Of a stretch of 14,127 nucleotides of DNA, positions 1 to 10,007 are shown piece by piece (position 1 is the stretch's first letter; the number at the start of each line of letters is the position of its first letter). Source of the DNA: a virus; the IMG/VR virus record IMGVR_UViG_3300021399_000006, positions 1 through 14,127 of that record; one strand, written 5' to 3'. Under the pieces are notes generated by a model. It had not been told where the DNA came from, did not search any database, and saw nothing but the letters and a program-made list of their open reading frames with translations. The position numbers were made by a program, and so were the translations under genes.

Positions 1-138
1 CCCATTCACATCAGGGGCTTTAGGTCTCACTGTATGTAGCCGGATTCACCCTTCCTATCCCCCACTCATACAGGATGGTTGATCGTTTTTATACCGCATC
101 TCCATTCTACGGTCAACTGAGCATTTGGCTCAGTTCAA

Positions 139-220
139 GCCAGCAATAGGATTTGAACCTATATCGTATTAGGCCTTACACTCCTTGGGGGAGCCGCTTT
201 ACCAATTAAGCTATACTGAC
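139..220 (-). tRNA. tRNA-like, class II length (82 nt), irregular anticodon arm; possible pseudogene
   Basis: T-arm ATAGG-TTCAAAT-CCTAT (146-162). Acceptor GTCAGTA/TGCTGGC pairs 7/7 with two G.U. D-arm GCTT/AAGC. The anticodon stem only folds with a 5-nt loop (CCCAA). The long variable region is about 18 nt. Confidence 0.4.
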
Positions 221-1733: not shown

Positions 1734-1854
1734 TTATTCTCCTTTTATATAATCTCTATAAGCACAATATTCATCAAATGTTCCTTTGAATCCATTATTA
1801 ACAGCTTTAAGATATTCTTTGTTTAAAACAACTGAAAAATTAGTTTCCTACTAA

Positions 1855-2154
1855 TTAACTTGCATTACCGATTGCTAACTCATATTCTCTTTCCCTTTCT
1901 GCCATTGCGACAAGGCGTTTTACATCTGAATGATACCAATGTTTACCACCTCGTCTACCTTTTTCTGCCCCAAAAGCAGGTCTATGCTTTTTAGTTTTCC
2001 CGCTACAAAGAGGACAAGAGCAATGAACTTTATTCTTACTATATTGATGCAAATTATTATACCATGAGAAATGGTAAACTTGTTCTGAAATATTTCTTTT
2101 TCTAATTGCTTTTGTTACGCTATTGTGTCTTTTTTCTGCCAAAGTTCTACACAT
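1855..2154 (-). CDS. hypothetical basic Cys/His-containing protein (100 aa)
   Basis: ATG at 2154 is preceded by AAAGGAG at optimal spacing. The track ORF 1855..2307 extends upstream only through a TTG codon across the T-arm element, and that frame is closed by TAA at 2344-2346. Confidence 0.65.
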   Translation of the reverse strand: MCRTLAEKRHNSVTKAIRKRNISEQVYHFSWYNNLHQYSKNKVHCSCPLCSGKTKKHRPAFGAEKGRRGGKHWYHSDVKRLVAMAEREREYELAIGNAS

Positions 2155-2200
2155 AATAAACTCCTTTGAAACTTGATTAACGAAACATTTAACAATTAGC

Positions 2201-2224
2201 GGTGCGAGAGGGATTCGAACCCCC
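2201..2224 (-). ncRNA. T-arm plus 3' acceptor strand of a split/giant tRNA-like structure (see finding at 2201-2750)
   Basis: GGGGG-TTCGAAT-CCCTC followed by TCGCACC. There is no local anticodon or D arm. The matching 5' acceptor GGTGCGG lies about 545 nt upstream on the same strand. Confidence 0.45.
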
Positions 2225-2278
2225 AGCCCAATTAAGAGCAACGGTTTTGAAACGGTTTTAGAAGTTTTTAATAACCTC

Positions 2279-2683
2279 CTAAAAAATATAATCTTTAGCA
2301 AAATCAATATTTGCTGTTTGTCCAGATTTTGTTGGTAAAACTCTTAAAGTTTTTTCTACAAAACCATCTTTAGGAGCAGGATATAAATAAAAAATACCAT
2401 CTTTTTCAGTCATAAAAAAATCTATTTCTTTATTTGTATATTTCATTCTTTTGTTTCCTGCTCCTGTTGAATGCTGGCTATATCCATTAAAAACAAATGC
2501 ACTATGCTCTTCATCCTTCCATCGAGATGTTTTAATTTGTATTTTTAATAGTTTATTATCTACATCTAAAATAAAATCATATCTTGCATTATCAAACAGT
2601 GGTTTAGAAACAATAAAACCTGCTTCTATACATTTTAAGAAACATTTTTGCTATGTCATTGCTCCTTGAATTTGTGTATTCAT
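2279..2683 (-). CDS. hypothetical protein (about 134 codons) containing one internal in-frame TAG (2651-2653); possible nuclease-like (D..D.K) core
   Basis: Reading frame ATG(2683) NTQIQGAMT-TAG-QKCFLKCIEAGFIVSKPLFDNARYDFILDVDNKLLKIQIKTSRWKDEEHSAFVFNGYSQHSTGAGNKRMKYTNKEIDFFMTEKDGIFYLYPAPKDGFVEKTLRVLPTKSGQTANIDFAKDYIF. It is open for about 122 codons after the TAG in AT-rich DNA and ends at TAG 2279-2281 (next TAA 2258-2260). No well-spaced SD; the start is uncertain. Confidence 0.45.
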
Positions 2684-2934
2684 ATTATTATTTTTAAAAC
2701 TAATAATTCCGTTTCAAGACCGCACCTCCTCCCCACTAAGGTACCGCACCATATCAAGGCTTAAAAAGTTTCATTTTCTCTTTTTTCAGAGGTCAATTCC
2801 TATTAAGAATAAGAAATAGAAAACTTTCAAATAAAAGAAACTTGTCTATTTTACGACCAAAATTCTCCTAAGAATCATGTTAAATCTTGTAATTTTCAAC
2901 CCATTAAAAATAAAATTGCCGTATAAGCCTTAGC

Positions 2935-3021
2935 GCGGATGAGTGGATTCGAACCACCGGACCCAAATGTAGGATCAATACCTTAGCAGGGTACCGCATT
3001 AAACCTCTCTGCCACATCCGC
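2935..3021 (-). tRNA. tRNA-Ser (anticodon GCT), class II
   Basis: Perfect 7-bp acceptor GCGGATG/CATCCGC. T-arm GGTGG-TTCGAAT-CCACT. Anticodon stem TACC/GGTA with loop CTGCTAA. Long variable arm. Length 87 nt. Confidence 0.85.
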
Positions 3022-3032
3022 AAATAGGTAAC

Positions 3033-3104
3033 CACCCTTCTGGGATTCGAACCCAGGACTGTTGATTTAGAGTCAACTGACTTAGACCGCTTGTCGAAAG
3101 GGCG
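3033..3104 (-). tRNA. suppressor tRNA, anticodon CTA (reads UAG amber)
   Basis: Acceptor CGCCCTT/AAGGGTG (one G.U), U8 present, D-stem GAC/GTC, anticodon stem GTTGA/TCAAC with canonical 7-nt loop C-U-CUA-A-A, T-arm CTGGG-TTCGAAT-CCCAG, discriminator G. D-loop and discriminator are similar to the neighbouring tRNA-Gln. Confidence 0.8.
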
Positions 3105-3203
3105 TCACCAAGACAGATTAAAATTTGCTTAAATTAGATTAACAGTCCAATACAAAAATTAAAATAAATTGCTGTTTCTGTCTTTCTTTCATCTTATAAA
3201 TAT

Positions 3204-5532: not shown

Positions 5533-6179
5533 CAATTGAATAACTTAATTATATCTATGAATAACACCCCTTCGGGTTGCTGGCAATAACCTTCTCTTAT
5601 ATTCGACCACCAAGGAGACATACCTGAGCGGTTAGGAGCGACCTAAACGCTATATGCCCCATCTGTTCAAGACAGATAAATCTTGTAGAGGACTTTGCAT
5701 ACCTCTAACTTTCAGCTACCTTTCAGAAAATTTACATAATAACTTGTATAAGAAGTTATTCAAATTTTGTTGTCTACGCACTTTTAGCCTACTCGTACCT
5801 TGACCCAATCTTATACACGACTTCCGCCGCTTCATGTGCGCTAACCCCTTATGGAAATTCCAAGGTTTGCAAAGTTTTCCACGCTTCACCTAACTTGGAT
5901 TAGTGCTCTCGTTAAAGAACCCTATATTATGGAGTCGATTGGAACAGTGTCTTTAAGAGCGATTACCCCAGTGCTATTGACTAAACCATTTCTTTAGACC
6001 TGGCGTTTTATACGTCACCGCATAAAAACTTTTTTCCTAAGAAAGTATCCTTCCTTATTCTGGTTATTCGTAAAGCCAATACCTCAGCGTCATGGAATTG
6101 ACGTTTATCACTGAGTTGCTTCATAAATATAACTAAATTATTCAATTGTCAATGTTCTTTTGTTGATAATTCAACATAG

Positions 6180-9920: not shown

Positions 9921-9936
9921 ATTTTTCTCCTTTAAT

Positions 9937-10007
9937 TGCGGGGATAGGATTCGAACCTACAATCACCGGGTCAAAAACCGGCCGCTTTACCGTTAGCGTA
10001 CCCCGCG
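9937..10007 (-). tRNA. unusual tRNA with an E. coli tRNA-fMet-like acceptor stem (CGCGGGG ... CCCCGCA-A, C1xA72) and an 8-nt anticodon loop UUUUUGAC (UUG or UUU reading; Gln-like D-loop)
   Basis: T-arm GTAGG-TTCGAAT-CCTAT. D-stem CGCT/AGCG perfect. The anticodon stem GCCGG/CCGGT closes an 8-nt loop. D-loop AACGGTAA and loop TTTTGAx resemble the tRNA-Gln at 232-302. Confidence 0.5.

What the first reader, a model, noticed from the sequence alone, without database searches (positions are those of the whole stretch)
2201..2750. Roughly 550-nt tRNA-framed structure: complementary acceptor strands, T-arm and a 13/14-bp closing helix enclosing the TAG-containing ORF
The 3' element (T-arm GGGGG-TTCGAAT-CCCTC plus TCGCACC, 2201-2224) has no local 5' half. 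About 545 nt upstream on the same strand lies GGTGCGG-TA-CCTTAGTGGGGAGG (2727-2750 reverse complement), a tRNA 5'-half look-alike with a 7-nt acceptor strand, U8-A9 and a D-arm-like stem. Its first 7 nt pair 7/7 (one G.U) with TCGCACC. Immediately inside, CGGTCTTGAAACGG (2709-2722) pairs 13/14 with CCGTTTCAAAACCG (2242-2255). Together these form a long helix that replaces the anticodon stem. The GC-rich 5' part duplicates ACCGCACC and contains GGGGAGGAGG. The overall topology (tRNA-like domain plus long helix plus enclosed ORF) resembles a tRNA gene carrying a large intron or insert with an intron-encoded ORF, or a tmRNA-like molecule. I cannot tell which it is.
Basis: partly seen in the sequence, partly recalled or inferred. 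Interest (0 to 1): 0.75.

Follow-up and report, generated by a model that had tools for sequence, protein, structure and literature searches.

The report
Endonuclease gene splitting a phage tRNA
A phage serine-tRNA gene is cut in two, right after its anticodon, by a 466-base mobile insert that is almost entirely a homing-endonuclease gene and has no room for a self-splicing ribozyme, so how or whether the tRNA is repaired is an open and testable question.

Summary
Window 2200-2750 (minus strand) is a type-II tRNA-Ser(UGA) gene, the only one in a roughly 30-tRNA phage array. It is interrupted between nucleotides 36 and 37 by a 466-nt insert (2248-2713).

About 91% of the insert is a 141-codon ORF for an I-Ssp6803I-family PD-(D/E)XK homing endonuclease (PF11645). 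The ORF has two in-frame TAG codons, and the array carries a tRNA(CUA).

The same architecture recurs in 29 loci across eight tRNA isoacceptors, with strong covariation.

A cultured phage, Enterococcus EFP01, has the same element in tRNA-Asn. Twenty-nine sister phage records carry the intact gene, which fixes the junction at 36/37 and shows mobility.

It is not a group I or II intron, not a bulge-helix-bulge intron and not tmRNA. Only about 40 nt of the insert is non-coding. I found no published description.

Most likely it is a ribozyme-free mobile intervening sequence whose terminal helix directs protein-mediated excision and ligation (about 0.45-0.5). The main rival is an unspliced selfish insertion (about 0.35).

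The parts
2714..2750 (-). 5' exon of tRNA-Ser(UGA), nucleotides 1-36: acceptor 5' strand GGTGCGG, U8, D-arm, anticodon-stem 5' strand GCGGU (2723-2719), C32 U33 and anticodon U34 G35 A36 (2716-2714)
   Evidence: Read directly from the sequence. In-silico splicing gives ARAGORN tRNA-Ser(tga). Acceptor pairing is 7/7.
2248..2713 (-). 466-nt intervening sequence inserted between tRNA positions 36 and 37: 30-nt leader, 141-codon ORF, stop codon, 10-nt tail
   Evidence: The junction position is fixed by L015 (35/36 or 36/37 only), by the Ile loci, and unambiguously by EFP01 against EFDG1. Inserts measure 451-491 nt across the loci measured.
2258..2683 (-). Homing-endonuclease ORF of the PD-(D/E)XK I-Ssp6803I family (ATG 2683-2681, TAA 2260-2258). 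In-frame TAG at codon 11 (2653-2651) and codon 135 (2281-2279).
2200..2247 (-). 3' exon of tRNA-Ser(UGA): A37 A38, anticodon-stem 3' strand ACCGU (2245-2241), long variable arm GCUC-UUAAUU-GGGC, T-arm, acceptor 3' strand UCGCACC (2207-2201) and discriminator G73 (2200)
   Evidence: The plus-strand Rfam hit Plastid-psbI-rps4 (32 bits) covers this region; I read it, from memory, as the antisense of a plastid tRNA-Ser 3' half.
2709..2723 (-). P1 helix, 5' strand: anticodon stem (27-31), C32, U33-A36 and intron nucleotides i1-i5
   Evidence: Pairs with 2241-2255 in 14 of 15 positions. Covariation in 29 loci: 94% of cells paired, 13 of 14 pairs with double changes, 0 of 500 shuffles as good.
2241..2255 (-). 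P1 helix, 3' strand: the intron's last 8 nt (CCGUUUCA), A37, A38 and anticodon-stem 3' strand
   Evidence: The intron's last three bases complement the anticodon in 28 of 29 loci. They change with it in eight isoacceptors (Ser UGA, Leu UAA, Ile UAU, Pro UGG, Asp GUC, Thr UGU, Gly UCC, Asn GUU).
2687..2706 (-). P2, 5' strand: the leader upstream of the ATG, which can pair with the end of the ORF (it competes with a local hairpin)
   Evidence: RNAduplex -6.2 kcal/mol; pair list. In relatives, cognate leader/ORF-end duplexes average -7.4 against -4.8 kcal/mol for non-cognate pairs. P2 is present in most loci but not all.
2258..2275 (-). P2, 3' strand: the last codons of the ORF plus the TAA stop codon
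   Evidence: The stop codon lies 9-14 nt before the 3' junction in every locus examined.
3032..3104 (-). Context: suppressor tRNA(CUA), needed to read the two in-frame TAG codons of the endonuclease ORF
   Evidence: ARAGORN and Rfam. In homologues the TAG positions align mostly with E, and with Q in P0054 and I-Ssp6803I.
2933..3021 (-). Context: tRNA-Ser(GCU), the conserved neighbour of the Ser(UGA) slot in these arrays
   Evidence: Most related arrays have Ser(GCU) next to the interrupted Ser(UGA) gene and no intact Ser(UGA) in the fetched flanks.

Best explanation
**What it is (shown).** The array's tRNA-Ser(UGA) gene carries, exactly between anticodon nucleotide 36 and nucleotide 37, a mobile 466-nt element. 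The element consists of little more than a homing-endonuclease gene of the I-Ssp6803I PD-(D/E)XK family.

By analogy with I-Ssp6803I, the endonuclease presumably cuts the pseudo-palindromic anticodon stem-loop DNA of intact tRNA genes. Copying the element into the break during repair would explain its presence/absence among sister phages and its spread across unrelated tRNA-Ser genes and seven other isoacceptors.

**How it most likely works at the RNA level (inferred).**
- The element has no ribozyme.
- Its 10-nt tail and its first bases pair with each other and with the anticodon. This extends the anticodon stem into one long helix (P1, often continued by P2).
- P1 places the two junctions three base pairs apart on opposite strands.
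- I propose that this structure, not any sequence, marks the insert for excision by a protein endonuclease, and that the exon halves are then sealed by an RNA ligase to restore tRNA-Ser(UGA).
- Ribosomes finishing the ORF, whose stop codon is 10 nt from the junction, would melt P1/P2. Translation of the endonuclease and processing would then be mutually exclusive.

The enzymes are unknown.
For: **Identity of the exons and the ORF**
- The spliced product is called tRNA-Ser(tga).
- Acceptor pairing is 7/7, the discriminator is G73, and the variable arm is long.
- There is no other Ser(UGA) gene in the window or in the flanks of the properly interrupted Ser loci.

**No ribozyme**
- Only 30 + 10 nt of the insert is non-coding.
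- Rfam E-value scans of the window and five relatives find no group I, group II or small ribozyme in the inserts.
- Synonymous-site variation is flat along the ORF.
- Junction nucleotides vary: the 5' exon ends in A, U, G or C, and the insert ends in A, G, C or U.

**A conserved RNA structure**
- P1 is 94% paired in 29 loci, with 13 of 14 pairs showing compensatory changes. None of 500 shuffles does as well, and slid controls reach only 29-50%.
- When the host tRNA changes, the tail changes with the anticodon.
- Stop-codon spacing is constant.

**Mobility and exact junction**
- EFP01 carries the insert, while 29 other Schiekvirus records carry the intact tRNA-Asn with identical exons.
- Intron similarity and exon similarity are uncorrelated (Spearman -0.007).

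**Hints that the tRNAs are still needed**
- Up to three tRNAs are interrupted in one array.
- An intact Ser(UGA) gene appears only where the element lacks a 3' exon (L023) or sits in a different tRNA (L028).
- ORF-less nested inserts occur in other tRNAs of the same arrays. These could be tolerated only if exon ligation exists.
Against: - No splicing enzyme is identified, and no protein-dependent tRNA splicing is known in bacteria or their viruses.
- No RNA ligase or endonuclease candidate lies within about 10 kb in four long loci, L003, L035, L037 and L039.
- The endonuclease has the canonical metal-dependent DNA-nuclease motif. No Tyr/His/Lys triad is conserved across subfamilies.
- The 3-nt stagger of the two junctions does not fit the 2-nt 3' overhang that RNase III is known to leave (from memory).
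- The element moves horizontally often. Intact exons may therefore reflect recent invasion rather than selection for function.
- Phage tRNAs are often dispensable, so an unspliced insertion could persist by homing drive alone.
- There is no transcript evidence.
Confidence: 0.5

Rival explanations
1. **Selfish insertion that is never spliced.** The endonuclease gene sits inside its own target because that guarantees co-conversion and immunity. The phage tRNA is dispensable and is simply lost. P1/P2 and the tRNA-like frame serve the endonuclease mRNA: protected ends after RNase P and 3' processing, an RNase III-type release site, or translational control.
For: - Horizontal transfer is frequent and presence/absence is recent: 1 of 30 distinct Schiekvirus phages.
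- Relatives of the enzyme live free-standing between tRNA genes in Kuttervirus and T5-like phages.
- Two loci have decayed or missing 3' exons (L023, L028).
- No new biochemistry is required.
- A helix that extends the anticodon stem necessarily has the observed register. The register alone therefore does not prove splicing.
Against: - The non-coding tail is kept complementary to the anticodon in eight different tRNA hosts. Pairing is most strictly kept at the junction-flanking base pairs.
- Up to three tRNAs per array would be sacrificed.
- No back-up Ser(UGA) gene is seen where the gene is interrupted.
- Every previously known case I recall of an endonuclease gene inside a structural-RNA gene is removed from the RNA (from memory).
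Confidence: 0.35
2. **Self-splicing by an unrecognised RNA catalyst.** This would be either a minimal ribozyme built on P1/P2 or a core hidden inside the coding sequence.
For: The terminal helix is conserved, and the known relative I-Ssp6803I lives in a self-splicing group I intron in a tRNA gene (background knowledge).
Against: - About 40 nt is non-coding.
- There is no Rfam hit even at E <= 10 or E <= 1 in relatives.
- No synonymous-site constraint is visible.
- There is no conserved U at -1 and no terminal G. Junction bases vary freely.
Confidence: 0.05
3. **Excision without ligation**, as with the RNase III-removed intervening sequences of bacterial rRNA. The insert is cut out and the two tRNA halves stay base-paired but nicked.
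For: The architecture resembles rRNA intervening sequences as I recall them: an ORF-bearing insert whose ends form a long stem. P1 plus P2 plus the anticodon stem give about 29 bp in the window.
Against: - A nick beside the anticodon is expected to abolish decoding (background knowledge).
- The required 3-nt stagger does not match RNase III.
Confidence: 0.08
4. **A tmRNA-like molecule or a chance resemblance**, in which the two tRNA halves are unrelated.
For: Topology only: a tRNA-like domain closing an ORF.
Against: - There is no tmRNA call.
- The ORF is a 141-aa enzyme with 471 homologues.
- The architecture recurs with covariation in 29 loci.
- An intact allele exists in sister phages.
Confidence: 0.01

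Closest known systems
Group I intron of cyanobacterial tRNA-fMet encoding I-Ssp6803I (Synechocystis PCC 6803)
   Same: - The kind of host site is the same: the anticodon loop of a tRNA gene.
- I-Ssp6803I recognises a 23-bp pseudo-palindromic target as a tetramer (PMC3384342). That target being the tRNA-fMet anticodon stem-loop is from my memory.
   Different: - There is no group I ribozyme here. About 40 nt is non-coding, there are no Rfam hits, and the U(-1)/terminal-G rule is not obeyed.
- The ends instead form a continuous helix with the anticodon.
- The hosts are phage tRNA arrays, in eight isoacceptors.
Archaeal ORF-bearing introns in tRNA and rRNA genes, spliced at a bulge-helix-bulge motif by EndA and RtcB
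   Same: - They are ribozyme-free.
- Junctions are defined by structure, not sequence.
- The insert can be little more than a homing-endonuclease gene closed by a stem.
- The junctions lie on opposite strands of one helix.
   Different: - There are no 3-nt bulges; the helix is continuous apart from C32 x A38.
- The position is 36/37, not the canonical 37/38.
- The endonuclease is PD-(D/E)XK, not LAGLIDADG.
- The host is a bacteriophage: tRNA-Tyr is the long bacterial type, ROOL RNA is present, and one member sits in an Enterococcus phage.
RNase III-excised intervening sequences of bacterial 23S/16S rRNA, and the uncharacterised endonuclease-bearing rRNA insertions of candidate-phyla-radiation bacteria
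   Same: An insert in a structural-RNA gene of a bacterial system, with ends that pair into a long stem. No ribozyme is present and some carry an ORF.
   Different: - Those fragments are not religated, and rRNA tolerates this. A tRNA nicked beside its anticodon should not.
- The junction stagger here is 3 nt.
Free-standing homing endonucleases in phage tRNA regions (T4 SegB, T5 F-Tfl enzymes)
   Same: - They share the ecological niche.
- Distant PF11645 relatives are free-standing between tRNA genes in Kuttervirus and Pectobacterium phage My1.
   Different: Here the gene lies inside the tRNA gene and carries a structured RNA frame.

Membership tests
Type-II tRNA-Ser(UGA) | 7-bp acceptor stem formed between the two halves | tested here: met
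   GGUGCGG/UCGCACC pairs 7/7. Across loci, cognate halves average 6.95 of 7 against 3.73 for mismatched halves.
Type-II tRNA-Ser(UGA) | Long variable arm, G73 discriminator, canonical T-loop, U8/A14/G18G19, and UGA anticodon in a 7-nt loop after removal of the insert | tested here: met
   GCUC-UUAAUU-GGGC arm, G2200, GGGGG-UUCGAAU-CCCUC. ARAGORN calls the in-silico spliced product tRNA-Ser(tga).
Type-II tRNA-Ser(UGA) | Produces a mature, aminoacylatable tRNA | not testable with these tools
   Needs tRNA-seq or a Northern blot.
Group I intron | Conserved catalytic core (P3-P9) detectable by covariance model | tested here: not met
   No Intron_gpI hit at E <= 10 in 2100-2900, and none at E <= 1 in five related loci. 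Only 40 nt is non-coding. Synonymous variation is flat across the ORF.
Group I intron | U before the 5' splice site and G as the last intron nucleotide | tested here: not met
   The window has A36 | ... A | A37. Across loci the -1 base is A, U, G or C and the last intron base is A, G, C or U.
Group I intron | Self-splicing in vitro | not testable with these tools
   Requires a transcription and splicing assay.
Group II intron | Domain V/VI structure and an intron-encoded reverse transcriptase | tested here: not met
   No Rfam hit. The insert is 466 nt and encodes a PD-(D/E)XK nuclease.
Archaeal/eukaryal protein-spliced tRNA intron | Bulge-helix-bulge motif (two 3-nt bulges separated by 4 bp) at the junctions | tested here: not met
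   The junctions lie in a continuous helix, 14 of 15 positions paired in the window. The required register (32-35 pairing with intron bases upstream of a bulge) is not complementary. This comes from reading the sequence and from the pair table.
Archaeal/eukaryal protein-spliced tRNA intron | Canonical position 37/38 | tested here: not met
   EFP01 against EFDG1 gives 36/37 unambiguously. L015 excludes 37/38.
Archaeal/eukaryal protein-spliced tRNA intron | Removal by a splicing endonuclease plus an RNA ligase | not testable with these tools
   No such gene is seen in the window or within about 10 kb in four related loci. Whole genomes were not available.
I-Ssp6803I-type PD-(D/E)XK homing endonuclease (PF11645) | Sequence and fold membership | tested here: met
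   [not shown]
I-Ssp6803I-type PD-(D/E)XK homing endonuclease (PF11645) | Catalytic D...QxK motif retained | tested here: met
   D36, Q49 and K51 are invariant in close homologues and conserved in the 13 aligned subfamily sequences. Position 11 is E in the other twelve but TAG in the window, and Q in I-Ssp6803I.
I-Ssp6803I-type PD-(D/E)XK homing endonuclease (PF11645) | Mobility: presence/absence at an otherwise identical site | tested here: met
   EFP01 is interrupted, while 29 other Schiekvirus records carry the intact gene with identical exons. Intron and exon similarities are decoupled.
I-Ssp6803I-type PD-(D/E)XK homing endonuclease (PF11645) | Cleaves the intact tRNA gene's DNA | not testable with these tools
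   Needs an enzyme assay.
tmRNA | tRNA-Ala-like domain, pseudoknots, resume codon and tag peptide | tested here: not met
   No ARAGORN tmRNA call. Rfam tmRNA matches only 17 nt of the T-arm at 10.5 bits. The ORF is a 141-aa enzyme.
RNase III-excised intervening sequence | Insert ends form a long duplex | tested here: met
   P1 (14 bp) plus P2 (15 bp, imperfect) in the window. P2 is present in most relatives.
RNase III-excised intervening sequence | Cleavage by RNase III with a 2-nt 3' stagger, and no religation | tested here: inconclusive
   Only 1-, 3- or 5-nt staggers can regenerate a 7-nt anticodon loop in this register (geometry derived). The enzymology is untested.

The most novel reading that the evidence does not exclude
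[quoted passage not shown] These are the endonuclease-only class seen in the window and, in the same arrays, nested acceptor-minihelix-NCCA inserts. If so, a bacterial or phage tRNA-splicing pathway (structure-guided endonucleolytic excision plus exon ligation) would exist outside archaea and eukaryotes.
Probability: 0.4. Interest if true: 0.92.

Novelty: new variant of a known kind. Interest (0 to 1): 0.78.

Why it matters
As far as I know, the tRNA introns characterised so far in bacteria and their phages are self-splicing ribozymes, and protein-catalysed tRNA splicing is regarded as an archaeal and eukaryal trait.

This element keeps the mobile endonuclease but has discarded, or never had, the ribozyme. 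It nevertheless maintains a precisely co-varying helix across the two junctions in eight different tRNAs and hundreds of metagenomic phages.

Either outcome is informative:
- If it is spliced, bacteria or phages possess an unrecognised tRNA-splicing route.
- If it is not spliced, phages tolerate loss of up to three array tRNAs to selfish genes, and the tRNA frame has been co-opted as an mRNA scaffold.

There are practical consequences too.
- Standard annotation misses these genes. ARAGORN's default mode and the Rfam tRNA model both skipped this one.
- Phage tRNA and suppressor repertoires are therefore under-counted. The deposited EFP01 record annotates no tRNA-Asn at this locus.
- The element exists in a cultured Enterococcus phage whose sister phages have the intact gene, so the question can be settled with one infection experiment.

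Tried and rejected
**Group I or II intron or a small ribozyme.** Rfam at gathering and E-value thresholds on the window and five relatives found nothing in the inserts. The junction rule fails and there is no synonymous-site constraint.

**Bulge-helix-bulge intron.** The register does not pair and no bulges form. The position is 36/37.

**tmRNA.** No call.

**DNA-level explanations for the inverted ends.** I considered transposon terminal repeats and fill-in of the endonuclease's staggered cut. A transposon would not change its terminal three bases with each host anticodon. Fill-in would give a direct duplication, not an inverted one.

**RNase III.** A 2-nt stagger cannot regenerate a 7-nt anticodon loop in this register.

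**Exon integrity as proof of function.** This argument is undermined by the lack of intron-exon co-divergence.

**Searches that found nothing**
- BLASTN of 1800-3200 against GenBank phages.
- An exact 5'-exon pattern in IMG/VR.
- Short Logan contigs checked for excised or circular intron forms; the one whose flanks I read (L032) was ordinary genomic DNA, and the rest were not read because the script failed.
- Promoter and terminator scans, at chance level.
- Literature searches for any description of such introns.

**Unverified memory.** I could not check my recollection that I-Ssp6803I leaves 3-nt 3' overhangs flanking the anticodon, because the papers are not held.
Full report
**Context.** The window is a minus-strand tRNA array.
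- ARAGORN finds 28 tRNAs and Rfam adds two more.
- There is a ROOL RNA at 5545-6139 (276.7 bits).
- There is a suppressor tRNA(CUA) at 3032-3104.
- tRNA-Tyr is the 85-nt long-arm bacterial type.

Together with the close relatives found later, this points to a TAG-recoded bacteriophage from a gut or rumen community.

Read as RNA on the minus strand, the locus is:

GGUGCGG-UA-CCUU-AGUGGGGAG-GAGG-U-GCGGU-CUUGA | 466 nt | AA-ACCGU-U-GCUC-UUAAUU-GGGC-U-GGGGG-UUCGAAU-CCCUC-UCGCACC-G

- This is a complete type-II tRNA with a 7/7 acceptor stem, G73, a long variable arm and, once the insert is removed, the loop CUUGAAA with anticodon UGA.
- G1 is at 2750, A36 at 2714, A37 at 2247 and G73 at 2200.
- ARAGORN calls the in-silico spliced sequence tRNA-Ser(tga).
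- In intron mode it independently reports an intron-containing tRNA at c[2199,2750].
- The minimum-free-energy fold of 2195-2755 recovers the acceptor, variable and T arms and the long helix, with z = -5.1.
- The array has Ser(GCU) next door (2933-3021) but no other Ser(UGA). The two Rfam-only tRNAs are Glu(UUC) and a weak Thr-like sequence.

**The insert.** It runs from 2713 to 2248. It has a 30-nt leader, a 141-codon ORF (ATG 2683, TAA 2260-2258) and a 10-nt tail.
- Codons 11 and 135 are TAG.
- In homologues these positions are mostly Glu, with Gln in one homologue (P0054) and in I-Ssp6803I at the first position. This fits read-through by the array's tRNA(CUA).
- The protein is a full-length member of Pfam PF11645 (87.7 bits).
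- Its best solved relative is I-Ssp6803I (2OST, E 1e-12).
- The catalytic D...QxK motif is invariant.
- There are 471 homologues at E <= 1e-3. The 120 best share 71-98% identity and sit on contigs of up to 213 kb.

**Relatives.** I collected loci from IMG/VR, JGI metagenomes, ENA/Logan assemblies, one MAG and GenBank phages. The architecture is stereotyped.
- Inserts are 451-491 nt, with leaders of 14-42 nt and ORFs of 135-148 codons.
- A stop codon lies 9-14 nt before the 3' junction.
- The close relatives all sit in tRNA-Ser(UGA) genes whose exon sequences are very different from one another.
- More distant subfamilies sit in tRNA-Leu(UAA), Ile(UAU), Pro(UGG), Asp(GUC), Thr(UGU), Gly(UCC) and Asn(GUU).
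- Up to three tRNAs are interrupted in one array (L037: Pro, Thr, Ser; L039: Ser, Pro, Gly).

**Where exactly the insert lies.** In the window a run of A residues leaves the junction ambiguous between 35/36 and 38/39.
- L015 restricts it to 35/36 or 36/37. The Ile loci fit only 36/37.
- The decisive case is a cultured phage. Enterococcus phage EFP01 has ...GACUGG-CUGUU | 463 nt | AA-CCAGU...
- Twenty-nine other Schiekvirus records, 93-99% identical in the flanks, have the uninterrupted tRNA-Asn ...CUGUUAA-CCAGU....
- The junction is therefore immediately 3' of the anticodon. The exons are unchanged, and the element is present or absent among sister phages.

**The helix.**
- Window coordinates are 2723-2709 paired with 2241-2255.
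- On 29 loci this P1 helix is 94.1% paired.
- Thirteen of 14 pairs show changes on both sides. None of 500 column shuffles reaches the observed values. Sliding the partner strand drops pairing to 29-50% (21-locus version).
- The three base pairs with the anticodon are kept in 28 of 29 loci and change with the anticodon.
- Exon halves also match only their own partners: the acceptor scores 6.95 of 7 against 3.73 for non-cognate halves.
- In most loci the leader additionally pairs with the last codons and the stop codon (P2). Cognate duplexes average -7.4 kcal/mol against -4.8 for non-cognate ones.
- In the window P2 is 2706-2687 paired with 2258-2275. Together with P1 this gives about 29 bp of imperfect duplex.

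**What it is not.**
- Not a group I or II intron. Rfam finds nothing in the inserts at permissive thresholds. Only about 40 nt is non-coding. Synonymous-site variation is uniform along the ORF at 0.25-0.45. The bases at the junctions vary freely instead of being U(-1) and a terminal G.
- Not a bulge-helix-bulge intron. The junctions lie in a continuous helix, no bulged register pairs, and the position is 36/37.
- Not tmRNA.
- DNA-level explanations for the inverted ends fail, because the terminal three bases track each host's anticodon.

**What can be said about mechanism.**

Shown:
- The element is a mobile homing-endonuclease gene inserted at the centre of the pseudo-palindromic anticodon stem-loop. 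I-Ssp6803I itself recognises a 23-bp pseudo-palindromic target as a tetramer (PMC3384342).
- Intron similarity and exon similarity are uncorrelated. Spearman is -0.007. The window and L003 share 97% of the intron but only 59% of exon-stem positions. Horizontal homing is therefore frequent.

Inferred:
- An RNA-level function keeps the 10-nt tail complementary to the anticodon and the leader.
- In P1 the two junctions face each other three base pairs apart, leaving the anticodon as a 3-nt 3' overhang on the exon side.
- Junction bases are not conserved, so recognition must be structural. That is the hallmark of protein-catalysed tRNA splicing.
- A ribosome terminating 10 nt from the junction would open P1/P2. 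This would couple endonuclease translation inversely to processing.

I favour excision plus ligation (about 0.45-0.5) for these reasons:
- the junction-proximal pairs are the most strictly kept;
- several tRNAs per array are affected;
- no back-up Ser(UGA) gene is present where the gene is interrupted, whereas an intact copy is present in L023, where the element has lost its 3' exon;
- the same arrays contain ORF-less nested inserts in other tRNAs that make sense only if ligation exists.

The main rival (about 0.35) is that the tRNA is simply sacrificed and the tRNA-like frame with P1/P2 serves the endonuclease mRNA.
- The decoupled phylogenies mean that intact exons may just be young.
- No nuclease or ligase candidate was found within about 10 kb in four long loci.
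- The endonuclease itself looks like an ordinary DNA nuclease. Its similarity to tRNA-splicing endonucleases is only at fold level.

**Novelty.** Seven full-text searches found no description of ribozyme-free, endonuclease-only tRNA inserts in phages.
- The EFP01 gene is annotated as a hypothetical protein, and its tRNA-Asn is not annotated.
- I class this as a new variant of a known kind, the mobile endonuclease-bearing tRNA intron.
- It may turn out to be categorically new if protein-dependent splicing is demonstrated.

Noticed in passing
L035 11181-11303 and 16700-16837; L031 1501-1634; L014 1621-1775: Other tRNAs in the related arrays carry short ORF-less inserts (47-80 nt) in the anticodon loop, with perfect cloverleaf exons and CCA ends. 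By my parse each insert is a 7-bp stem followed by a discriminator base and CCA. In two cases it also has a T-arm, and in L014 it is almost a whole tRNA. Each is therefore an acceptor-like minihelix nested in a tRNA, which RNase P and 3'-end processing could cut out. L035 16700-16837 would become an amber-suppressor tRNA(CUA) after removal. I found no description in the literature.
   Followed up: partly
L041 (Enterococcus phage EFP01, KY549443.1, about 105242-105777): A cultured Schiekvirus carries the same kind of endonuclease-only insert in tRNA-Asn(GUU). The deposited record annotates the ORF as hypothetical and misses the tRNA. Twenty-nine sister-phage records have the intact gene. In two of them (Bop, phage 113) an HNH endonuclease gene sits just downstream instead.
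   Followed up: yes
window 5545-6139 (-): A full-length ROOL RNA (Rfam RF03087, 276.7 bits, E 6e-63) is embedded in the tRNA array between two tRNA-Leu genes.
   Followed up: no
window 3032-3104 (-), 2651-2653, 2279-2281: Suppressor tRNA(CUA), which ARAGORN labels 'Pyl'. The two in-frame TAG codons of the endonuclease align mostly with Glu, and with Gln in P0054 and in I-Ssp6803I. The suppressor's D-arm region (UUCGACAAGCGGU) resembles both Gln and Glu tRNAs. Whether TAG is read as Gln or Glu is not settled.
   Followed up: partly
window 9936-10007 (-): ARAGORN reports a tRNA with an 8-nt anticodon loop and a four-base anticodon (uuug). Rfam scores it 50.8 bits. It may be a quadruplet or frameshift-type decoder, or a loop variant of tRNA-Gln.
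   Followed up: no
window 138-220 (-): The tRNA called Trp(CCA) is 83 nt long and has an unusually long extra region for a Trp tRNA. Its Rfam score is low (45 bits).
   Followed up: no
L023 1940-2540: This locus has a 5' exon fragment of tRNA-Ser(UGA), then the endonuclease gene with a short Shine-Dalgarno leader, and no 3' exon or P1 tail. A complete tRNA-Ser(UGA) follows immediately, with the loop CCUGAAA (C at position 33). It may be a cleavage-resistant replacement copy.
   Followed up: partly
L030 1844-1911: A sub-threshold match to the HDV-like ribozyme family from F. prausnitzii (29.8 bits against a gathering score of 44). It lies between a tRNA(CUA) and the interrupted tRNA-Ile.
   Followed up: no
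window 2750-2743 and 2726-2719 (-): GGUGCGGU occurs twice in the 5' exon, once in the acceptor strand and once spanning nucleotides 25-32. The duplication is not seen in the relatives' exon sequences, so I treat it as coincidence.
   Followed up: yes
L031 (MAG 'Bacilli bacterium RGIG5418', JAFVUY010000119.1, 158 kb): This was the only hit among 185,579 species genomes. It is a sheep-colon contig binned as Bacilli, with the same interrupted tRNA-Ser(UGA) and a tRNA(CUA). It is probably a phage contig, and it gives a weak hint of a Firmicutes host.
   Followed up: partly
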